DNA from: Takakia lepidozioides
Taxonomy: Eukaryota; Plantae; Bryophyta
Reading direction: 5' to 3'
Length of the DNA: 13,720 bases
Assembly: GCA_030704615.1 (NCBI GenBank)
Contig: JAKLZA010000104.1
Location: forward strand, 1 to 13,720
Positions 1 to 13,720 of the stretch are shown here, one piece after another; the stretch's first letter is position 1; every line of letters starts with the position of its first letter. Made by a program: the position numbers and the translations under genes. A model generated the notes under the pieces. That model was not told where the DNA came from. It was given only the letters and a program-made list of their open reading frames with translations, and made no database searches.

Positions 1-2892
1 TAAAAGTAGGAGCAGGACAGCCCCAATCTGGATTCCTCCTTATCATCTCTAAACAACGTTGCCGTGTATCCACACGAATTGCGAACACCTTCCTCGAAAC
101 GACGGCTTTGTGCGAGCAATTCTCCACTGTGAGGCAGACACAGTCGTCTCCACAATGGCTTGGCCATACTGCATAACAGCGGCGGAATGTGGGGCAAGGG
201 AGCGGTGGGAATTTGTTGCACGAAATCCCCGGTTGAAGGCGACGGCGATCTGGAATTTTCTTGGGCTTCCACTGCTGGAAGCACATTGTGGTGGAGGCAA
301 CATGACGGGACTCGAGGTGCTGTCCGAATGTTCCTGTCGGATCTCCAGGAATCCTCTTCGCACCCGGGTTCCTCTTCAATCCTCCGCCTGACAGGGCGAG
401 TCCGGACGTCCCCCTCTAGGTGTTCACCTCTGCGGTGCAGAGGCGTCCCTTTGATCTTCTCTCGCAATGCTGTCGCCCATTTCACTGGATTCTGGACCTC
501 GAAGCTGTTCGTACCAACAATTCCTCCCTGTCCGGCCCAAAGCCCCTGTTTGCCGCTCAGGAACTTGTAGTACGTGGCTTGCTGCATGATTGCTCTGTCG
601 ATGTCCTCCGTGTGGCCGTCACTACGTCCACCAGATGTGCGGCAGAAGACGCTCGCCAGGGGAGTGGCCGATTCTGCCATATTCGTGTTCGGCATGTCCG
701 TGTCGGAATCCAAGCACCGCTCCTAGAAGGACACAAACAACGGTGAGGGACCAATCGAAATGTCCGTAACAGAAAGACAAATGAACGAAATGACAGCAGC
801 CTACCTCCCGCATGTACTGTCCGAACTGTCGATACCGAAAATGCCACCACCCAACCAGCTGTGCAATGCTCCCAGATTGGTTGTCTCCACTGCACCTGAC
901 GTTCCACAAGCCTCGATGATAGCAAACTTAACCTCCGCGTCATCAAATGTGGGTGCATCCTTCCACGCCGTACAAAGGACACGGTGTTCAGCCTGGAATG
1001 AGCTAGCAACAAATTTGGTAGTGTAGTGGGATAGACTCTGCATCCAATGGAATCCACAGGATCTCTCTTTCCCCTCCATTGGAACATTGGGGTCCTCACC
1101 GTACACACGCCGCACCGCTGCCCAGTTGGCCTGAGCGTTGTCTGCCATGAATCCCCTGAAATTGGGCTCTGGCAATCCCGCCCTTGCCATCTGCTCGTTT
1201 ATGCCCTCCCACAGATGCATCTCGGACTGTGTGTCCTCCCCTTTCATCTCGCAGATTGCAATCGTCATGAGCCTCTTGGAGTGATAGTCATAAACATGCG
1301 CACCCATAGTCACCCACTGATGGTTTGTAATTCGCTTGATGTGATCAAACATCACCCAAGCATTCGACAAGTTTCCAGTTGTCATGCGAGTGACCAAGTC
1401 GACTCCACTCCCAGGCCCACACGTCGACATTTTGAAAATGTAACAACGATCGGATTCGCTGCCTTGCCCTGGAAACCTGCTACCTTGGATGTAGTCATAT
1501 CCAGTCATTCGTTTCACCTCCAGGATTGAGTACATGTCCGACCCCCTGCCGAACTCCTGCTTGCAAGATACGATGTGATTCCGCACATTCGGACTACAAA
1601 CGTGCGAGACGGACTCCAAGAGGTCACGCATCTCGTCTTCGGTCAAGGGCTCTCGGTCGGAACCATCTTCAGACATGATTTTGCCAAGAGCAATCTTGTG
1701 GGCTGCCTTCAGCTGAATCTGCTTTGGTCTGGCTCCGGGGCTCAATTTCACCTCCTCTTTTATGATGTCGTGTGCTTCCTGCACAGCCTCACGCATGTTG
1801 CCTCTCGCCAAGGGTGGCAGTGGACCCCAACGTGTATGCAAGCTCTAGTCAAGTCCGGGAGCAAATGGATTACGTAATATTGCTTGGCTCTGCACATGGA
1901 CATGCACGTCGGTGGTTCTTTGCAATGTGCACACTTGAAAGAACCCGCAGGAGCTTGGCTGGAGACAATGAATGGATGATGCGTTGTGCCAGTCCAATCC
2001 GTCTCGTTTCTCCGCCCTCCTTTGGAGAGAAAGTGGAAGCAGGTGGGATTGAGGCACCTCAGCTTCCCCGCACAGAGGACATATCGTACACGAACACCAT
2101 CAGCAATTTTCGTGCTACTGGTCTTCGTCACACACCAGGGGTGTCCGTCATGCTTTCGATCCATGTCTGTTAACATCCCGGAGGCTTTCTTTGACGAAGA
2201 AACAGGTGGAAACTCGAAGATGACATTGCCATCGACTTCGGGAGGCAGAAAAGTTACCTTTCTGACTGGAATTTGGCATAGTCGAGAGCAGCCAGCTCGG
2301 AGCGAGAACCATCGAGGTGATGTTGTCGTAGGAGCTGCACAATGGACCGGGTTGGAGTTATGCTCGAGGGCACATGCGTAGCACCTACAGAGACGTCCAT
2401 GCCGGATTTGAACGACCGTGTGGAGGACATGGGTACCTCAATGCAATCATCTTCCTCGTCGGAAATGTCGAATACGTCCACACGAGAAGCTATGGAGGGT
2501 CTTGACGGTCCAGGTCGGGAATGATTATCGTTGCATACCTCTCTGTTGGCAGTGGCCGCCTCTCGGTTTCCGGACTCCTTTGTGGATGGTGTGGGCAGCG
2601 ACTGATTCGGAAAGGGAATGGGCATTCCCACAGCTCGGTACAGGATGGTGTCTGACGGGGGAACGTGCCATTCGATTCCGCAACCTCCGTCGTTACCTAG
2701 CACGACAATGGTCTCGTCAACCTGTCCAGGAACATCCTTCCTTTCTTCTTCCAAATAAACTGTGCCCGGTTTGAGCTTGAATTTGGAACAAAGGTAAGTT
2801 TCAGTCACTCTGCAAAGTCCTCCCTCGTTTGGGATCCAGGCTCTCCCAAGTTGCGGAGGACAGCAAACTATAGCGTAGGAATTCGGAGCCAT
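1..2892 (-). pseudogene. MULE/Mutator-family DDE transposase with N-terminal GCM-like Zn domain; frameshifted as given (errors or decay); 3' end lies beyond the window start
   Basis: ORFs 2254-3108 (probable start MAPNSY, ATG 2892), 1760-2176 and 801-1841 join via 1-bp frameshifts at ~2270 (LDYAK/IPVRKVTFLPPEVDGNVIFEFPP) and ~1810. Catalytic-type motifs: WVMFDHIKR (D ~1344), FMADNAQANW (D ~1140), the MULE CxxH motif CGFH (~1046-1057), WWHFRYRQF, then a GT-AG intron 804-723 and MPNTNMAES (E ~672). Further frameshifted coding sequence continues to position 1. Confidence 0.8.
1811..2152 (-). other. GCM/WRKY-like zinc-binding DNA-binding domain of the transposase
   Basis: HDGHPW...LCAGKLRCLNPTC...CAHC...C...C...GVHCHP parallels the GCM pattern W...SCLGVVVC..C...CPNC...C...GEHDHP. 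By-eye alignment only. Confidence 0.65.
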
Positions 2893-3415
2893 CGAACACC
2901 GCACGGAGTTGGCAAGTGCGAGGTTCAGTATAGCGACAGACCAAGGCTCACAGGCACCATCTAAGTGGATCTGCGGAGTCCATCGACAATTGGAAGTCGC
3001 ACATTGAAGTGGAAAGTATTGTTTCAAGCTACATGCATGAAGGTGGGAGGTTTGATTCCATAGCCAGTGAGTAGGACAATGATGGCCGATTCGGCGACGA
3101 AATAACATCTCCTGACAGTTTCTCCTGAGGGTGGATCCAGCAGTATTCTCGGTGCAGACAGGAACGTTCGCACTGACAAGTGCCAGGACTGCTGGTTAAA
3201 ACGGTCAGACAACCAAGTTGTGCTCATCAAGACTGGCCGCAATTGTGTTGTTTCGGAACAATGCAACCCATTGAGGTTCCAGATTTCCCGTCACGAGTGA
3301 TTCTGTCGATTGCTGGTGGACGGAAATACGGCGCCGCATTTCCGTATTGCATCTTGGTCATGCAACAGAGCGACGGAAATGCGGCACCGAGTTTCCGTCC
3401 GGGGGAAACCTTTAT

Positions 3416-4150
3416 ACTCTCCAGAACGGAAATGCGGTAACGCATTTCCATCCAGCAAGCACGGTATGTGAAGGTGGAACGGAAATGCGGTACCGCATTT
3501 CCGTTCTGATTGAGATTTATGAACAACGGGAACAGAAATGCGGCACCGCATTTCCGTCCGAGTCGCACTTTTCGACATTCCAGAACGGGAATGCGGCGCC
3601 GCATTTCCATTTTGTATCTGATGCATGGAGCTGAGGGATAGAAATGCTGCAGCACATTTCCGTCCTTAAAAGACATTCATACTCTCGAGAACGGAAATGC
3701 GGTACCGCATTTTCATTCAACAAGCACGTATGTGAAGGTGGAACGGAAATGCGGTACCGCATTTCCGTTCTGATTGAGAATTATGAACAACGGGAACAGA
3801 AATGCGGCACCGCATTTCCGTCCGAGTCGCACTTTTCGACATTCCAGAACGGAATGCGGCGCCGCATTTCCATTTTGTATCTGATGCATGGAGCTGAGGG
3901 ATAGAAATGCTGCAGCATTTCCGTCCTTAAAAGACATTCATACTCTCGAGAACGGAAATGCGGTACCGCATTTTCATTCAACAAGCACGGTATGTGAAGG
4001 TGGAACGGAAATGCGGTACCGCATTTCCGTTCTGATTGAGAATTATGAACAACGGAACAGAAATGCGGCACCGCATTTCCGTCAAAGTCGCACTTTTCGA
4101 CATTCCATAAAGGAAATGCGGCGCCGCATTTCCATTTTGTATCTGATGCC
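3416..4150. repeat. Higher-order repeat: ~2.8 copies of a ~265-bp unit (5 x 53 bp)
   Basis: Units start at 3416, 3681 and 3942 (actctc.agaacggaaatgcggta) with near-identical spacer order. Confidence 0.93.
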
Positions 4151-4220
4151 TGGAGCCGAGTAAGATTCCGACAGCTTCATACAGCGCAATTCCGACCGGT
4201 TGAGACATTCACACTATCCA

Positions 4221-4547
4221 GAACGGAAATGCGGCACCGCATTTCCGTTCTGACTGAAAATCGTGAACTATCTGAACTGAAATGCGGCACCGTATTTCCA
4301 TCCGAGTCGCACCTACCATCATTCCAGAACGGAAATGCGGCACCGCATTTCCGTTCTGACTGAAAATCGTGAACCATCGGAACTGAAATGCGGCAACGTA
4401 TTTCCATCCGAGTCGCACCTACCATCAGGCCAGAACGGAAATGCGGCACCGCATTTCCGTTCTGACTGAAAATCGTGAACCATCGGAACTGAAATGCGGC
4501 AGCGCATTTCCATCCGAGTCGCACCTCCCAACATTCCAGAACGGAAT
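4221..4547. repeat. Higher-order repeat: 3 copies of a 106-bp unit (2 x 53 bp)
   Basis: gaacggaaatgcggcaccgcatttccgttctgactgaaaatcgtgaac...atccgagtcgcacct recurs with palindromes at 4225, 4331 and 4437. Confidence 0.92.
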
Positions 4548-5719
4548 GTATTAGATTTAAAAGGGAAATGCGGCACCGCATTTCCGTTCTGATGAAATAT
4601 CCTGAAACATCGGAATTGAAATGCGGTACCGCATTTCCGTCGGAGTCCCACCATCCGACATTCCAAAACGGAAATGCGGCACCGCATTTCCGTTTTGTAT
4701 GTGAGGCATGGAGCTGTGGAACGAAAATGCGGGAAGGCATTTCCGCCAGCGTCAGACGTTAATACTCTACAGAACGGAAATGCGGTACCGCATTTCCATT
4801 CTGACTGAAAATCGTGCGCAACGGGTACAGAAATGCGGCACCGCATTTCCGTTCGAGTCGCACCTTCCGACATTCTCGAACGGAAATGCGGCGCCGCATT
4901 TCCGTTTTGTATATTCGGCCTGGAGCTGTGCTACGGAAATGTGTTGCCGCATTTCCATCCATGTGAGACCTTCAACCTTTCCAGACCGGAAATGCGACAC
5001 CGCATTTCTGTCCAGGTGAGACCTCTATACTTTCCCGAACGGAAATGTGGCACGGCATTTCCATTCATCAACTAACGTATGTGAAGTGGGAACGGAAATG
5101 CGGCGCCGCATTTCCCTTCTGAATCTCATACATGGAGCTGTGGGACGGAAATGCGGCACCGTATTTCCGTTCAACAACTAAGGTATGTGAAGGTGGAACG
5201 GAAATGCGGTGCCGCATTTTCTTCCAACAAGTACGGATGTGTAGCAGAGTGATCGTACTTAACGGAAATGCGGCGCCGCATTCGCATTCTCGCTCCAACT
5301 CATCAGACGCTGGGACGGAAATGCCTTGAAATGTGAACACGTGGAGCAACGGAATTGCTGCACATGTCGGCACTCTATCTGACTGAAGGGGCATGAGGCG
5401 GCGCGGCCTGACCGTTGGATAATGATGTTTGATTTTCGGACGGCGGGCGTACCCTCAACGATTCGAATTTCGTAATGACGCAAACTCCACGAGGAGACAC
5501 TTTCGTCCAACCTTTCGAACCCAAGTGGTGCATCACCGCCGTTTCATCTACTTTTGTCGTGTCTCCTCAGTCACCCCTCTCGCGCCCTTTCCATCTGCAC
5601 TCTTTGCCCCTTTTCCCTCTCTCTGTTCTTCTTATGCTCGAACCTGAGAGGGGGGAGTTCGTGCACCAGACAGGAGACCTCGTCGCAAGCTCCGGAAATT
5701 ATACTTCGGACGTAGGCCA

Positions 5720-8700
5720 ATGCCGAAGGGGAGGAAGCAGATGCGTCTACAGGAGGAGATTGCCATCTCCGAGCAGCAGGCCACTCAGGCAACCCAGCCA
5801 CCAGTGAGAGCTCCATGCGATCGGGCTGCGCGCAGCTGATCGAGCACCGAACCCCCCATTTTGCTTCTGTAATTCTTAGACTGAATGCTAGGAGACTTGA
5901 ATGCAGAACATGTTTGCATGCCTAACAGGAAAGGTGGACGTGCTGGAGGGATCGCAGGAATCCGAAGAGCCGCAGGAAGAGTCCGAGGAGCTAGCTGCAG
6001 CACGTACACCCACCCGATCCCCGAGCGCGGGTACTCCTGCCGGGCCTAGCCCTCTGCGATTCAAAGACGCGTCTTCGAAGGGCAAGTTCAAAGTCTCAGA
6101 GATCGACTCGCGTTCTTCGATCATGGAGAATCGCCAGCAGGGGTCGGGCCCTTCTCCAGCAAAGTCGAAGAAGAAGCAGCCCGTCCCTCTACTGGCTTCT
6201 GAACCGGCTCAGGCCGATTCACCCCCCCAACGCGAATGAAGCAGCAGGGTAGAAGACAGATTCTATTGCAGCAGACACCTTCACCTGCAAGGATGAGGAA
6301 GCAGAAGGCAATCAGGGCGACGGCCGAACAATCTCCCGCAAAACCGCTTCCACGAGCTGAAGCTCAGTTCCTGGAGGATTTCCCGCCTGCAGATGTTGGG
6401 GCCGACTCTGCTGCAGCGAAGGCAATGGGATCGACCGTTGATCTCGATTTGGTACCGGAGGAGGGTGCTGCCGCTGAACGTTCGCAGGCAGACCTCACCA
6501 CCGATGAGCTAGCAGGCCCGGAGGAGGCCTCTGCAGTGGCAGAATTGCCCGCACACAGGCCCCAGAGTGCAGCTCCAGTTGAGGATGCTCCACCTGCTCA
6601 GCCACTACCGGCACCTACAGACATGTCTCCGGAGGATTTCAAAAGTGCAGCGGATAAAATGTTGGAGGAGACACACAGTAGCATTGGCAGAGTTCTGGGC
6701 AGCAGGGTATTCCAGCGGACTCTTCGAATCCCACTCTGTCGCATGGTCTCCCTTCCCATCGTCAGGCAGGCCCTTCCCGGAGATGTGGATAAGCTCAAGT
6801 TCGCATTTCGAGAAGGGTACCGTCTGGGATCGGCAGCGTTTTACGTTTCCATAGAGAATGAGGACGGCGAAACCCGTGGACCCACTGCCGATGAATTGTC
6901 AACGTGGGATACCCACTGGCACACTCGCAACCACGAATTCGAGGCGACGCTGAAGGGTGATCCCGACTTCGGCCATATGTCGGGAAAAATGTTCTTTGTG
7001 TGGGACGGGAATCACCGACTTCTCGCCTGGTGGGAGTACATCAAGCAGAACCATGCCAAGCACATTGGCTGGCATTACATGGTGGAGTGTGTCATCCTCA
7101 AGGTGAAGGCGGCAGACTCCTCCCTCCTCAAGAATGCCATGGCGGACCTCAACTCGTAAGATACTCATACCCTCCCTAGCACATTCGAAATGCGGTGCCG
7201 CATTTCGGTTTCCATTCTGGTTTGATTCCGTGCTTCCGTGTACTGAACTGGAGAGTGTGCCTTGCAGGGTCACTGAGAATGCGTACGTGCATACCCACAT
7301 GGCACATATGCTGTACAGGGTGAGGAAAACTGGTCTTACTGATCCGCAGATGTTTGCGGAAATGCTGGAGCCGGAGCTCATTCAGAAAGCCGTTGCAAAA
7401 ACAGACCGGACATGGTATCGTCTCACTATGGATGGAATGGTGGAGGTGATATACGAAGTAAGTCGTGCTCCAATTTCCCTCTGCTCATCCTTCCCCAATT
7501 TCCAGTAATGTTTCCACATGAATCGAATGTAACGCTTCTGCATGTTTTTGTTGGCAGTCAAACATCAAGCTGGATTTGGCCCATGCCAAACGCTTCTTCA
7601 TGGAAAGTGAGGGGCAGGTCAAAACGTTGCAGTCATTGACTGAGCACTTGAAGGAAGCCGGTGTCAAGTCCAGAACCAAATACAAGTCAAAGCTTGTGAA
7701 GCTGGTGGCAATTGCAGATCCGGCACTTGGAAAGGACTTCATCCCCGAGATTGCAAAACACTATTCTCGGGCCATGCAGCCGACCATGCAATTGGAGAAA
7801 CTGCATCACCTCTCAACGGCATGTGTGGAGGCGAAAGAGAAGGTGAGGTTTCAATGCACTGAATTTCCTTCCTAGCAATAGCCACTCTCTTCCAGCCACT
7901 GACATTGGATCGGAAATGGCAGACACGGTGGCTGTCGATCTGGAATGCATCCGAGAGCATAAGGACAATGTGGTCTTTTCCACTGGAAGTTTCCGACCCT
8001 GCAGTGGATGTGTGGCTCAACCGTATGACTTGGTGGTTCCAGGTAATTCAAGGTACTTCCCCAGATTTGCTTTTCTGACATGAATTCCCTGAACTGCTAC
8101 GTGACAATGCATTTGGGAATGGCAGGTAATGTCGAATGCAAAGGAGCAAGTCGTAATGCACACAAATTCGTTCGGCTTGTACGTCAAATGGGATGGAACA
8201 CAGACATTGGAAGACTACGTGACACGTTTCAGATGTGCGTACAAGGACAACCTTTTCGCCAGAGAGCTACAGACAGCAAGAAGGAGCGTGGAGTTTACAC
8301 ATCAGGAGGGAGCGGGGAAAGCTGCAATGCGAATTGTTTACAGGTGAAGCACAGCTGCCCTTGTATGCGAAGCCTGGTTACGAGGTTTGTCTCGGAAATG
8401 CGGCACCGCATTCGCATTTTATGTTTTCGGTGGCACTCTGCCAGTAGGTTGGTCTCAAGTTTTGCTCACGCATGCTGACTGCCTTGCAGGTATATGAAAT
8501 ACGTGCTCCTTCAGACAGGGGCCCTGGCTCAAGAGCCCCCGTTCTTCATGGCTTGGACCGTGGCGGGCCCAAGCTGTGTCTACACACCCGAGATGCAGAA
8601 ACAATGGCATCCCGCGCATCTCGTTGGATGCCCGTGGTACCTGGACATGTCTGGCGGTATTGTTGACGAGTCTGAGAAAGATCTGCACGCCTTGGCAGAA

Positions 8701-10842
8701 GAGAAGAGAAAGGAAAGACGTGTCCCTGCTGGGCCAAAGTCGGCAAAGGAATCTGCTGCTCTGGAAGAATCCAGAAAGGCAGCTGAGATGGCACAAAAGA
8801 CGGTGGATGCAGCTGTGCAGGCCCAACAGAAGGGGTCGAAGAAGAGGACTCGCCAGCAAGGAGCAGCTGTTGTGACACCCGCCAAAACGAAGAAGCAGAA
8901 ACAGCCTGTTCAGGAAGAGGGTGAGGAAGAGGACTCCGATGGAGACTTTGCAACCAGCCCACCCCCCCAAACGCAGGCTGCCTCCCCTGTGCCCACCGTT
9001 GTCACCAGAGGCACGAGAACTGGCTCGGCAAAGAAGGCACTCTTCAACCCCCCAGGGGGGCACCCTTTCGAGCCGGTGGAAATGAAGAGGCCGAAAGTGG
9101 CTCCCGAAACTGTAGTCCAGTGTGTAAATGAGAGTTTCTTGGCGGCTTTGGATGGACGGGCAGCCAAGTTGGCATACATGAAGACCATGGAGGGTCTGAA
9201 GGGCAGAGCACTGAAGAAGGCGACTGCCGAAGAGCCTTCCGACACCCCAGGATTTCAGAATATGGTCTCGTTCTTTGAGAGGGTGTGTGCAGACAAGGAT
9301 TGTAGGAGGGGCGGAAATGCCACCGAGTGGTCTTGCGATATGATCATCTTGGATATTCCGGACGGAGAGCCTGTGGAAGGACTGCAAGCTTTGCCATCTT
9401 GGAACAGGTACTCGGAGGACTTTTGGAAGAAAGGATTCGGGCTTGCCCGCATGGTGTTGGACGACAGAGGCTGTGTGGTTGTCCTGGCGAGCAGAGGAAA
9501 AAACACTCAGACAGGAATTGCGAAGTGGACCCGCAAGAGCGCCGTCCCGATTCTGAAAAAGAAGTGGACGTGCATCAACACACTGGGCCTTCGGTCGGAA
9601 GGGAAGAAGGTGATTACGACACTGGCACTCGTCCATTCATTTGCTTGGGTGCTTTCAAATGCGGTGCCGCATTCGGTTTCTAATCGTTTTCCCCCTGTGT
9701 ATGCAGACGAAGCAGTTCGATGCATACTGCTTTGTGAAGGAAAACTCCACCTTTGCTTTCCGGAAGGAGGGAGGAAAGGTTGACCCGAACTGCGACCCAC
9801 TCGATTACGACGTTCTGTTCAACAACGTTCCCAAGGAACTTCTCCCTCATAGCCTCACTTCAACGGAACCCCTGCGGTACTCACGGACTCGGAGCCCTGC
9901 CTTCATTCAGACAATTATGGAGACATGCACAGACGTGGAGGGCACAGTGCTGGACCTCATCTGTGGGACAGGTATGCAGAATCTTGATCTCTGCTGTTCT
10001 GCAAATTCTCGTTAGGATGTAGTTCGCAACATCTGAAGCGCCATGTGGTAATGTGTGGATGGCATTGTAACAGGTGCCTCAATGTGGGCTGGGCGGTTTT
10101 CCGACCGGCACCTCTTTGCCTACGAGGAGGATTCATCCGTGTGGGGATCCCATCTGGAGGGCTGCAACGGAATGTGAAGGCTCCCGACAGAGCGGAAGTC
10201 TCCTCGGATTCGTCGGAGTCCGAGGAAGACACAGTGGACATTGATGCAGAGGAGAACCCGGAATACGAGTGAGTGCAAACATTGTAAGTTTGCAAAGCCT
10301 TCTGGGTCATTTATGTCAAAGGAATTTCCCGACTGTGGTTCTCATTAGTCTCGTTGATGATTGTCATGTGCAGGATTGCAGGGTCCGGGTCGAAACATGT
10401 AGGGCCTACACTTCCTGCCAGGAAGAATGTCCCGTTCTTTGCGAGGGCCGACTTCATGACGAGCCCGGTGAGGGACTACTCCCTTCCTAGTTATGCAGCT
10501 AAACTCGCAAATACAGCGATTAGAAGAAGTGAGAATCCCAGTAAAGTAGAGCAGATTTTGGAGAGGGCTAGGGAGGACAGAAGGATAAGGAAAGAGTTGG
10601 CAGCAGCTCAGACAGGTAGACGGGTACGAAAGTACATATGTGATTCAGCGGATGAGAGCGACGCAGACAGGGAGGAGGACGACCCAACGGAGGTGAGATG
10701 GACAGTTCCGCAAGGGGAAGATGGGATTTTCGAAAGCCTGGCCAACGAGCAGTCCGCTGGAGATGAGAGAGGCACTGAGGGGGTGGAGGAGGAGCAGGAC
10801 AGTCTAGAACAGGATGAGGATTCCGATGATTTTCAAGATTAA
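5720..10842 (+). CDS. Multi-exon gene (~1400 aa): disordered N-terminus, ParB/Srx-like domain, unknown middle region, beta-class N6A/N4C DNA methyltransferase-like domain, acidic tail
   Basis: Inferred exons: 5720-5803 (tentative), 5907-7155 (5' boundary tentative), 7268-7457, 7558-7842, 7923-8042, 8126-8343, 8490-9609, 9707-9971, 10074-10268, 10374-10842. All introns are GT-AG, ~80-146 nt and phase-compatible. Two +1 corrections are needed (C7 run 6222-6228; G run ~10159-10161). Motifs: MFFVWDGNHRLLAW (GNHR ~7007-7018); CDMIILDIPDG (DIPD 9352-9363); RSPAFIQTIMETCTDVEGTVLDLICGT|GASMWAGRFSDRHLFAYEED. Confidence 0.8.
7186..7207. repeat. Solo palindrome copy in intron 7156-7267
   Basis: cgaaatgcggtgccgcatttcg. 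Confidence 0.9.
8394..8415. repeat. Solo palindrome copy in intron 8344-8489
   Basis: ggaaatgcggcaccgcattcgc. Confidence 0.88.
9655..9676. repeat. Solo palindrome copy in intron 9610-9706
   Basis: tcaaatgcggtgccgcattcgg. Confidence 0.85.
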
Positions 10843-10978: not shown

Positions 10979-11905
10979 AGAAATGGGTCAGGGCATTTCC
11001 AAAATTTTGGCAACTCTAAGAACCTCTTTTGGAAATGCGGCACCGCATTTCCAAAACAGGGGAGGGACTAATTTTTCCATTTCAATGTTGGCATAGTAAA
11101 AAGTAATCTGAATTGGGAATGCGGTGCCGCATTTCCAAAATTTCCTTTGTCCACACGCCAGTTTTGGCCTCTCCCGCTCATTGCATGGATGCCACCACGC
11201 TTACAGAGGTCGAACAAGGAGGTCGAACAAGGAGGCCGACATGGCGGGATTGGAAATGCGGTGCCGCATTTCCATATTGGGGATGGTGGTTGTTCGAACT
11301 GCAGACCCATCAGCAAAAACTGGCACCGCATTCCATTGTAAAAAAAAAGTCGATGACGGACATGGAAATGCGGCGCCGCATTTCCAGAACGGACATCGCA
11401 ATTTGTCAATTTGCAGACCCTCTCTCGGAAATGCGGTAACGCATTCCATCGCGCTGGTCGGAAATAGGTGCACTTTTCGAAGTGTTGGACGGAAATGCGG
11501 CACCGCATTCCCTTGTCCAAAAAGAAGTTTCCATTGCCAAGCTGGAAATGCGTCGCCGCATTTGCAATGCCAACCTCGTTTTCTGATCAATTTATAGACC
11601 CGTGTTGGTATTTCGTGTACCTGGACGGAAATGATGCACCGCATTTTCTTGTCCCACATGGAAATGCGGTGCCGCATTTCGATGTCCGACATGGAAATGC
11701 GGTGCGGCACCGCATTTCCCGATGAAATGCGGCGCCGCACATCCGACATGAAATGCGGCGCCGCATTTCGATCCGACATGGAAATGCGGCGCCGCATTTC
11801 GATCCGACATGGAAATGCGGCGCCGCATTTCCAAGCCGACATGGAAATGCGGCGCCACATTTCCATGCCGACATGGATGCGGTGCCGCATTTCAATGTCC
11901 GACAT
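10979..11905. repeat. Array 2: ~18 copies of the same palindrome, dispersed at first, then a ~31-33-bp tandem minisatellite (11655-11905, linker atccgacat)
   Basis: Starts at 10979 (degenerate), 11031, 11115, 11252, 11314 (degenerate), 11364, 11427, 11491, 11544, 11627, 11660, 11693, 11723, 11749, 11780, 11811, 11843, 11875. Confidence 0.93.
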
Positions 11906-12229: not shown

Positions 12230-12293
12230 CGAAGTCCATCCCCTCTTCGATGTAAATGCGGCGCCGAATTTCCATCCGGGGGGATGGACTTCG
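12230..12293. other. 64-bp inverted repeat/hairpin centred on a palindrome copy
   Basis: cgaagtccatcccc (12230-12243) is the exact reverse complement of ggggatggacttcg (12280-12293) and encloses gtaaatgcggcgccgaatttcc. Confidence 0.85.
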
Positions 12294-12410
12294 GTGGCAG
12301 ATCTCAAACTATAACTTGTTGATGAGAAAGATGTATGGCTTCATCCACCGCTGGCGTGATGAACACGTTCCACCTCCGTCGGTGGGTACGTGTGACCCAG
12401 ATGCTCCATT

Positions 12411-13085
12411 TTGGAGGCCGGACTGCTCTTCCGCTTCGTATCTTTTCCAAAATCTAAGGGCTTCGTAGCTGTCCGCAAGGTCATCGGCATCCAAGTCGTC
12501 CTCAGGTCCTCCTTTGCAAGGATGCCGTGCTTCCGGAACCGGGACGACTGCCCCTTTGGAGGCATCGATTATGCAATGTATTCGGCCACATCGGGAGACA
12601 TTGTTATCTGGTACACAGATTACACAGAAGATACTGGTTCGATTGTGGAAACATTGGTGGCTTTTGAGTATATCGTAGGCCACTACGCCTTCGAGCGGGG
12701 TGACGATCTTGGTTTGAGGAGTCCGTGGCTCCTGCGCATCCTCGATTCCGATTTTCCCAGCTACGACGGTCACCCATGCAGAAGAAGGCGCACTGCTATG
12801 CTGTTGCGGTGGAACTGCTGCCACTGGACGTGGGTGGACTCCATCGGAGAGACCTATTCTCCTCGAGGAGTGCGCTCCTCTTCTCCATTGTATGGGGACA
12901 TTCGCATTGGTGTGGACGACGAAAACGTGAAGATTTCCATATTCGATGGTGGTATGATTGAAGGGCAGGACATTGTGGTGAACATCACTAGGGGCGGTAC
13001 AACGGCTGCAATCGACTTTACATGGAGGAGCCCCAGGACTCATGAGCTAGTTCTGAGAGCAGTCGAAGTCCCATTGACAACGTGA
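12411..13085 (+). CDS. Hypothetical protein (start uncertain; first in-frame ATG 12522; possibly contains compensating frameshifts)
   Basis: 224-codon open frame with protein-like, beta-strand-rich segments (DIVIWYTD, DIRIGVDDENVKISIFDGG) and an AATAAA ~84 nt after the stop. No recognisable family. Confidence 0.5.
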   Translation: MEAGLLFRFVSFPKSKGFVAVRKVIGIQVVLRSSFARMPCFRNRDDCPFGGIDYAMYSATSGDIVIWYTDYTEDTGSIVETLVAFEYIVGHYAFERGDDLGLRSPWLLRILDSDFPSYDGHPCRRRRTAMLLRWNCCHWTWVDSIGETYSPRGVRSSSPLYGDIRIGVDDENVKISIFDGGMIEGQDIVVNITRGGTTAAIDFTWRSPRTHELVLRAVEVPLTT

Positions 13086-13497: not shown

Positions 13498-13534
13498 GCT
13501 CATGGCTCATGCCGCTCATGGCTCATGGCTCATG
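13498..13534. repeat. Short tandem repeat (GCTCATG) x5, one interruption
   Basis: gctcatggctcatgccgctcatggctcatggctcatg. Confidence 0.8.
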
Positions 13535-13720
13535 AAATAGCAGCCCCCTGGAACCCCTCTAGCAGTCCCCCTAAACCCCCCTAAGCTGCATGTTGGGCTC
13601 AGTTGAAAAATTAAGGGTACCCTACAGATCCCGTATAAGTGTCTAAGTCCCCGACAGTCCTCTAACACCCTCCAACCGCTGAACACTTTGGCAAAGTGGA
13701 CTCCGCAAGAATGCTCCAAG

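What the first reader, a model, noticed from the sequence alone, without database searches (positions are those of the whole stretch)
9325..10135. Beta-class amino-methyltransferase-like domain with non-canonical catalytic motif DIPD
Seen only after splicing three exons: motif IV-like DMIILDIPDG, then LDDRGCVVV, then motifs X-I-II (RSPAFIQTIMETCT..EGTVLDLICGTGAS..AG....R.LFAYEED), which is the beta-class order. An intron splits motif I. Known: the canonical motif IV is (D/N/S)PP(Y/F), and bacterial-derived 4mC methyltransferases occur in bdelloid rotifers and Marchantia. Inference: either an active enzyme with altered chemistry or a catalytically dead SAM/DNA-binding pseudo-enzyme.
Basis: partly seen in the sequence, partly recalled or inferred. 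Interest (0 to 1): 0.75.

Follow-up and report, generated by a model that had tools for sequence, protein, structure and literature searches.

The report
Plant transposon's ParB-methylase lacking catalytic tyrosine
A jumping gene, likely from a non-flowering plant, carries a spliced helper gene that joins a ParB-fold domain to a phage-type DNA methylase whose base-holding tyrosine is replaced by an acidic residue, so the protein likely binds the element's 56 mirror-image DNA sites rather than methylating them, a variant of a helper-gene design already reported from seaweed transposons.

Summary
The DIPD stretch is motif IV of a real beta-class amino-methyltransferase domain, spread over three exons. 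It is the C-terminal domain of a 9-exon gene that starts with a ParB/sulfiredoxin-fold domain. The gene lies back to back with a Mutator-type transposase, and a 20-bp palindrome occurs 56 times in the window, in none of this gene's exons. Relatives occur in the liverwort Riccia, Adiantum ferns and unnamed metagenome contigs, and they share the intron positions. The splice junctions are supported by homologues, not by RNA. DIP is ordinary: 2 of 5 phage methylases fetched have DIPY. Only the fourth residue is odd. It is acidic in the window and in 3 open-frame relatives (DIPE, DYPE, DVPE), S/T in 20 of 20 Riccia copies, and F in 7 of 9 fern-type copies. The SAM-pocket motifs are kept, and listed variants in the domain are silent. 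Best reading: a maintained but likely catalytically crippled self-recognition factor; an active, altered enzyme is not excluded. ParB + N4/N6-methylase helper genes are already reported in algal transposons, so this is a new variant of a known kind.

The parts
1..2437 (-). Mutator-like (MULE) transposase in pieces 1760-2437, 801-1844 and 3-722; runs off the window start
   Evidence: ESM Atlas 0.91 to PF10551 MULE clusters; D..D..C-x-x-H pattern read from the sequence (pattern recalled); no Pfam hit at E<1; homologues sit divergently beside the ParB gene in other loci
3323..5284 (.). 53-bp-period array holding 35 copies of the palindrome GAAATGCGG-NN-CCGCATTTC, between the two divergent genes
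   Evidence: 34 palindromes against a shuffle mean of 4.5
6362..7155 (+). Open part of exon 1: acidic linker, then the ParB/sulfiredoxin-fold domain (about 6690-7153) with WDGNHR at 7001-7018; start codon not fixed (1-base gaps at 5649 and 6221)
   Evidence: AF2 pLDDT 89.6; Foldseek and VIA top hits are ParB, Noc, PadC, KorB, Srx; 491 relatives; indels
7268..8343 (+). Exons 2-5 (7268-7457, 7558-7842, 7923-8042 or 7896-8042, 8126-8343): conserved middle region, fold not tested
   Evidence: open join; collinear with Riccia P0153 (E 9e-25); one contig of a run guessed to be RNA skips 7843-7922 and 8043-8125
8490..9609 (+). Exon 6: charged linker, then the N-half of the methylase domain
9352..9363 (+). 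Motif IV, D-I-P-D; invariant Trp of the following loop at 9400-9402
   Evidence: (aligns to the DPPY of CcrM, E 0.12)
9707..9971 (+). Exon 7: motif X (RSP, 9890-9898) and motif I up to the split Gly (DLICGTG from 9953)
10074..10268 (+). Exon 8: end of motif I and acidic motif II (AYEED, 10118-10132); 1-base gap at 10157/8 in this assembly
10374..10842 (+). Predicted last exon, with a 'Y-x-LP-x-YA' stretch also seen at the end of Riccia homologues
7187..9675 (.). Single palindrome copies in introns 1, 5 and 6 of the helper gene (7187, 8395, 9656)
10980..11893 (.). Second array, 17 palindrome copies, downstream of the gene (one more at 12253)
13606..13667 (.). Probable right end of a repeated element (contigs of three runs continue with differing flanks behind 13667); whether it is this element's end is not shown
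   Evidence: table 7

Best explanation
This is the helper gene of a Mutator-like transposon, likely from a non-flowering plant; its product joins a ParB/sulfiredoxin-fold domain to a beta-class methylase domain that keeps the predicted SAM pocket but lacks the base-stacking aromatic, and it likely binds the element's own palindromes as a catalytically weak or dead self-recognition factor. Shown: gene structure by homology, the two folds, the motif states, the divergent transposase, and the palindrome confined to non-coding DNA of this gene. Inferred: a dimer (both ParB proteins and beta-class methylases dimerise) would load at the two-fold sites, probably gated by nucleotide binding at the conserved G-N-H-R motif. 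It would coat the region between the two genes and the introns. It would thereby keep the element expressed or competent to transpose, as VANC proteins do for VANDAL elements. Which domain reads the palindrome is unknown.
For: Position 4 of motif IV stacks on the flipped base in CcrM (Tyr34; PMC6787082). It is non-aromatic in the window, in 20 of 20 Riccia proteins with a readable motif and in 6 of 6 loci fetched as DNA (DIPE, DYPE, DVPE, DVPR, NVPG, NIPR). The first Gly of motif I is also lost in the 3 open-frame acidic relatives (DCHAMTG, DWNASTG, DITASTG). The domain is still maintained: motif IV Asp and second Pro, the loop Trp and the acidic motif II are kept. Of 15 listed substitutions in modelled exons, the 9 from the ParB domain onward are all silent (3 inside the methylase domain) and the 6 in the linker all change a residue. 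All 56 palindromes lie outside this gene's exons, and none appear in 20 shuffles; VANC motifs likewise lie in tandem repeats upstream and in introns (PMC5735166). A divergent transposase is found in 7 of 12 loci with at least 4 kb upstream, about 5 distinct insertions.
Against: No activity, binding or expression was measured. The window's own motif I (DLICGTG) is within the range of the 5 phage enzymes, so one residue is its only visible lesion. 7 of 9 fern-type copies keep DLPF/DVPF and look competent. An acidic fourth residue in 4 diverged copies suggests selection for something specific rather than decay. Palindrome excess over shuffles was seen in only 4 of 10 upstream regions (window, L044, L061, L062), and a repeated element-specific palindrome only in the window and L044. 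5 of 12 long loci show no transposase.
Confidence: 0.5

Rival explanations
1. The domain is an active amino-methyltransferase with an altered pocket (D-x-P-acidic). ParB would target it to the palindromes, where it would write 6mA or 4mC on the element's own DNA, or methylate another amine.
For: Catalytic Asp, second Pro, motifs X, I and II are all present in the window. In CcrM several contacts to the target base are made by main-chain atoms of motif IV. D/E at position 4 recurs in 4 diverged open-frame copies. Variants in the domain are silent. Self-modification is the published proposal for the algal proteins (PMC12477816).
Against: Position 4 varies freely across the family (D, E, S, T, F, I, R, G). 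The other acidic copies have lost a motif I Gly. Recalled, from no call: removing this aromatic sharply lowers or abolishes catalysis in M.TaqI and M.EcoKI. The N4CMT test read here (SPPY to APPA, inactive) changed two residues, so it does not isolate the Tyr.
Confidence: 0.3
2. The palindromes are transposase-binding sites, and the ParB-methylase gene acts elsewhere or without sequence specificity.
For: Cut-and-paste transposases commonly bind repeated subterminal motifs (recalled). Arrays of one palindrome are not evident in most related loci.
Against: The main array is internal, between the two genes, and copies sit in the helper gene's own introns. Inverted-repeat arrays lie beside ParB-domain helper genes in red algal transposons too (bioRxiv 10.1101/2025.02.11.637652).
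Confidence: 0.12
3. DIPD is a private mutation (TAC to GAC is one base) or a sequencing error in a decaying copy of a DIPY enzyme.
For: The assembly has many 1-base gaps, and GAC is one transversion from TAC.
Against: Relatives have D-x-P-E. No difference at 9352-9363 is listed for a contig spanning 8509-11000 at 12 differing letters, although only 8 of its 12 are listed. Variants are silent.
Confidence: 0.08

Closest known systems
Accessory protein of Sola1-1_Ec32, Ectocarpus (PMC12477816; passages seen)
   Same: ParB-like domain plus N4/N6 DNA methyltransferase domain in one protein of about 1100 aa, on the strand opposite the transposase; proposed to bind and modify its own element.
   Different: Brown alga and Sola1 superfamily, against a Mutator-like element with land-plant relatives here. 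The passages seen give no motif IV. Sequence homology to that protein was not tested.
PAG2 and PAG3 of Bostrychia Plavaka elements (bioRxiv 10.1101/2025.02.11.637652; section 8 and passages read)
   Same: Transposon helper genes with a PF01555 methylase and a ParB-like domain; tandem arrays of inverted repeats beside the ParB gene.
   Different: There the methylase is fused to SET and ParB to a 2OG oxygenase, in separate genes of EnSpm-type elements.
VANDAL/VANC (PMC5735166, PMC10398659; passages seen)
   Same: Mutator-like element whose helper protein binds a short motif amplified in tandem repeats of non-coding regions, introns included.
   Different: VANC motifs are short and arrayed in one orientation, whereas this one is a 20-bp palindrome. 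No Pfam family hit any exon here. Anti-silencing is shown for VANC and untested here.
Beta-class amino-methyltransferases (CcrM, M.BceJIV, M1.HpyAVI, M.MboIIa; phage DLPY/DIPY enzymes)
   Same: Fold and motif order IV...X-I-II.
   Different: The aromatic of (D/N)PP(Y/F/W) is replaced by Asp; the gene has spliceosomal introns and a ParB fusion.
Bdelloid N4CMT and Marchantia DN4MT1 (PMC8885841, PMC10406627, bioRxiv 10.1101/2021.02.12.428880; passages seen)
   Same: Bacterial-type beta-class methylase in a eukaryote.
   Different: Those are host genes with SPPY and shown 4mC activity; neither has a ParB domain in the passages seen. Direct kinship with DN4MT1 was not tested.
DIRS1 retrotransposon methylase domains (PMC4738411; passages and section 8 seen)
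   Same: Transposon-borne amino-methylase domain predicted inactive through catalytic substitutions.
   Different: PCIF1-related group-2 domain in a retrotransposon polyprotein; unpermuted, no ParB.

Membership tests
Beta-class N6A/N4C methyltransferase (PF01555) | Motif IV precedes motifs X-I-II | tested here: met
   (193 aligned columns to phage enzymes)
Beta-class N6A/N4C methyltransferase (PF01555) | Methyltransferase fold closest to beta-class enzymes | tested here: met
   On Riccia homologue P0154 as stand-in: Foldseek ranks 1-9 are CcrM, M.BceJIV, M1.HpyAVI. Mean pLDDT 58, residues 136-226 under 50; VIA Z 6.4 for BceJIV and MboIIa, below Trm14 at 8.0.
Beta-class N6A/N4C methyltransferase (PF01555) | Catalytic motif IV (D/N/S)-P-P-(Y/F/W) | tested here: not met
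   DIPD. First-P change is common in phage enzymes; the aromatic is missing.
Beta-class N6A/N4C methyltransferase (PF01555) | SAM-binding motif I G-x-G and acidic motif II | tested here: met
   DLICGTG and AYEED, compared with DNCMGSG, DLCGGSG, DPVAGSG, DFTMGSG, DPCAGSG in 5 phage enzymes
Beta-class N6A/N4C methyltransferase (PF01555) | Pfam gathering score 26.7 | tested here: inconclusive
   Window exons scanned singly: no hit. Riccia homologues 23.7-26.2 bits, just under the cut-off. The spliced domain was not scanned against Pfam.
Beta-class N6A/N4C methyltransferase (PF01555) | Methyl transfer to adenine N6 or cytosine N4 | not testable with these tools
   needs an assay
ParB/sulfiredoxin superfamily | ParB/Srx fold | tested here: met
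   pLDDT 89.6. The 8 VIA rows at Z 5.9-7.7 are KorB, PadC, Srx (2), SerK, ParB-N, Atu1540, SbnI; only 13 of 48,161 chains reach Z 2. Foldseek E 0.013 at best.
ParB/sulfiredoxin superfamily | G-x-x-R nucleotide-binding motif | tested here: met
   WDGNHR; G, N invariant and H, R at least 90% in 32 aligned relatives; D/E-GNHR in 70 of 150 hits, 65 without a match to the pattern
ParB (parS-binding) | Helix-turn-helix that reads an inverted repeat | not tested
Mutator-like element (MULE) | MULE DDE transposase | tested here: inconclusive
   ESM Atlas 0.91, best family hits all MULE clan; no Pfam hit; third catalytic residue not located
Mutator-like element (MULE) | Terminal inverted repeats and 9-11 bp target duplication | not testable with these tools
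   left end lies outside the window and no genome is held
VANC-type anti-silencing system | Element-specific motif in tandem repeats of non-coding regions | tested here: met
   56 copies, none in the gene's exons
VANC-type anti-silencing system | VANC protein homology and induced loss of methylation | not testable with these tools
   no VANC sequence was compared; function needs experiments

The most novel reading that the evidence does not exclude
A lineage of land-plant Mutator-like elements has rewired a phage-type methylase to a conserved D-x-P-(D/E) active site. The enzyme is active and, steered by a nucleotide-gated ParB clamp, writes a non-host mark on the element's own palindrome arrays: a transposon-private epigenetic system with amino-methylase chemistry that needs no stacking aromatic.
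Probability: 0.2. Interest if true: 0.85.

Novelty: new variant of a known kind. Interest (0 to 1): 0.5.

Why it matters
Transposons that carry their own DNA-binding and DNA-modifying helpers are a proposed but untested class. This family gives a natural series in one scaffold: intact-looking DLPF/DVPF in fern-type copies, S/T in Riccia, and D/E here. It also offers an obvious candidate target, the palindrome. One assay panel could therefore show whether such elements mark themselves or only bind themselves, and whether an amino-methylase can work without its stacking aromatic.

Tried and rejected
No RNA holder was listed for 9200-10300. No contig of the four runs laid joins 9609/9707 or 9971/10074: run X4 has no piece listed across either junction, and one X1 contig covers 9658-9967 including intron sequence. 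This is no evidence either way. Word-indexed protein searches for longer relatives of single exons found nothing. Sequence searches of the PDB gave only chance hits for single exons and the ParB profile. No relative of the ParB domain was found in viral contigs. The single hit in prokaryotic genomes (L081) has GT..AG introns at the family's positions, so I reject it as a bacterial homologue and treat it as a mis-binned eukaryote contig. Phage matches are weak (E 0.01 at best), so no donor is named. Trees did not place the window consistently: the ParB tree groups it with the metagenome loci (97/93), the methylase tree loosely with fern-type fragments (91/88, unstarred), so a single 'acidic clade' is not shown. 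Acceptor 7895 of my first model was replaced by 7922. The Levivirus coat match is chance. No complex prediction was run. Literature searches found no paper describing the land-plant Mutator form or the D-x-P-acidic motif. Supplements of PMC12477816 and of the Bostrychia preprint, their reference 50 (pmid 21507349, seen only as a listing) and the journal version of the Marchantia paper were not read and may bear on novelty.

Full report
Observation. An 8-exon join from 6362 is open for 1040 codons in one frame. The stop near 10172 follows a 1-base gap: contigs of runs X2 and X3 have an extra base at 10157/10158, and likewise at 5649 and 6221. The gene therefore most likely has nine exons and ends at 10842.

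Are the splices real? RNA did not test the two named junctions. One contig of a run guessed to be RNA skips two upstream introns, 7843-7922 and 8043-8125, at GT..AG. Homologues support the named ones. L033 has both introns at the same codon positions and phases. L001, L066, L070 and L072 have a GT donor and AG acceptor at the motif I position; L069 did not show it. L081 has no intron at the first junction and reads straight through, collinear with the spliced product. The annotated Riccia protein P0153 (1207 aa) aligns with both the N-terminal half (E 9e-25) and the methylase half (E 3e-13) of the model.

The methylase domain. The motif IV exon piece scores 0.92 to N6_N4_Mtase clusters. A family profile finds CcrM as its only PDB sequence hit (E 0.12), with motif IV on DPPY. 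A model of the Riccia domain (mean pLDDT 58, confident only in the N-half) has beta-class DNA methylases as its top 9 Foldseek hits. The wide structural search was less specific, with Trm14 first at Z 8.0 and BceJIV and MboIIa at 6.4. An 11-sequence alignment headed by the spliced window domain matches 5 phage methylases at 97.8% probability over 193 columns; the window sequence alone is weak.

What is odd about DIPD. The 5 phage enzymes have DLPY, DPPY, DIPY, DPPY and DIPY, so D-I-P is ordinary. Their motif I strings bracket the window's DLICGTG. The single visible lesion is the fourth residue, which stacks on the flipped adenine in CcrM (PMC6787082, passages). Among 29 fetched proteins with a readable motif, 20 of 20 from Riccia have S or T, and 7 of 9 from Adiantum and similar unnamed fragments have F. 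Among loci fetched as DNA, the three open-frame copies have DIPE (L001), DYPE (L033) and DVPE (L081), and three stop-ridden copies have DVPR, NVPG and NIPR. The three open-frame copies also lack the first Gly of motif I. The Asp, second Pro, loop Trp and acidic motif II are nearly constant. Of the 40 difference rows shown (of 227), 15 fall in modelled exons. The 6 in the N-terminal linker all change a residue; the 9 further on, 3 of them in the methylase domain, are all silent. The domain is maintained, and the non-aromatic state is family-wide rather than private.

The rest of the gene and element. The N-terminal domain folds confidently (pLDDT 89.6) and matches ParB/sulfiredoxin-superfamily structures; it has 491 relatives. 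On the opposite strand, ORF 804-1760 resembles MULE transposases (0.91). Of 12 metagenome loci with at least 4 kb upstream of the ParB match, 7 (about 5 distinct insertions) have this transposase in the same divergent orientation and 5 show none. A 20-bp palindrome occurs 56 times with up to 4 mismatches: 35 between the two genes, 3 in introns of the helper gene and 18 downstream. None lies in the helper gene's exons and none appears in 20 shuffles. In related loci, tandem arrays are common, but a repeated element-specific palindrome was clear only in L044.

Mechanism. I commit to a self-recognition factor (0.5): a likely dimeric, nucleotide-gated ParB-fold protein that binds the element's palindromes, with a SAM-binding but catalytically weak or dead methylase domain, helping the element stay active. 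Binding, dimerisation, nucleotide use and the anti-silencing effect are inferred by analogy. An active enzyme with an altered pocket is the main rival (0.3), since D/E recurs at position 4 and the window's other motifs look intact. The trees do not show that the acidic copies form one clade.

Known context. [quoted passage not shown] Red algal Plavaka elements carry methylase and ParB helper genes beside inverted-repeat arrays (bioRxiv 10.1101/2025.02.11.637652, section 8). VANC proteins give the functional model (PMC5735166, PMC10398659, passages). Seven searches found no account of the land-plant Mutator form or of this motif; unread supplements may hold one. Earlier AI notes of this scan describe similar elements in other genomes; they are leads, not support, and one pointed me to PMC12477816.

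Verdict. A real feature, correctly spotted; a new variant of a known kind of transposon helper gene. Interest 0.5.

Noticed in passing
window 12309-13046 (-), continuing to about 12170: A third, convergent open frame of 245 codons with no Pfam or NCBIfam hit and no tblastn hit in the 80 metagenome loci; possibly a further helper gene.
   Followed up: partly
window 13606-13667: Contigs of three runs end their match at 13667 (...TAACA) and continue with differing flanks. Short subterminal repeats lie at 13498-13583. It may be this element's right end or the end of another repeat; TG..CA ends recall LTRs.
   Followed up: partly
window 3323-5284 and 10980-11893: The two CpGs in the palindrome arms are kept in at least 52 of 56 copies, and CpG observed/expected is mostly 1.3-1.5 in the arrays against mostly 0.5-0.9 in coding parts. 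This fits selection, low methylation or recent homogenisation.
   Followed up: partly
window 1-2638, 5649, 6221, 10157: Many 1-base gaps relative to contigs of run X2 (24 gaps over 1-2638); the frameshifts in both genes are probably assembly errors, so the element may be intact.
   Followed up: partly
L081 (CADCWO010000058.1): A contig filed under a cyanobacterial genome bin carries an intron-containing member of this gene family; likely eukaryotic contamination of the bin.
   Followed up: yes
L044 7400-8450 and 4880-5390; L066 7600-8310; L069 8126-8705 and 18960-20195: Other family members have their own tandem arrays with different units; L044 repeats a CATATGCA-based palindrome.
   Followed up: partly
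Riccia proteins P0151, P0153, P0154 and others: UniRef auto-names many of these methylase domains 'Trimethylguanosine synthase', which the fold and motif order do not support.
   Followed up: no
window 2254-3195 (-): An open frame of 313 codons upstream of the transposase pieces, without family hits; an extra base at 2267 in runs X2 and X4 suggests it is the transposase's 5' part.
   Followed up: no
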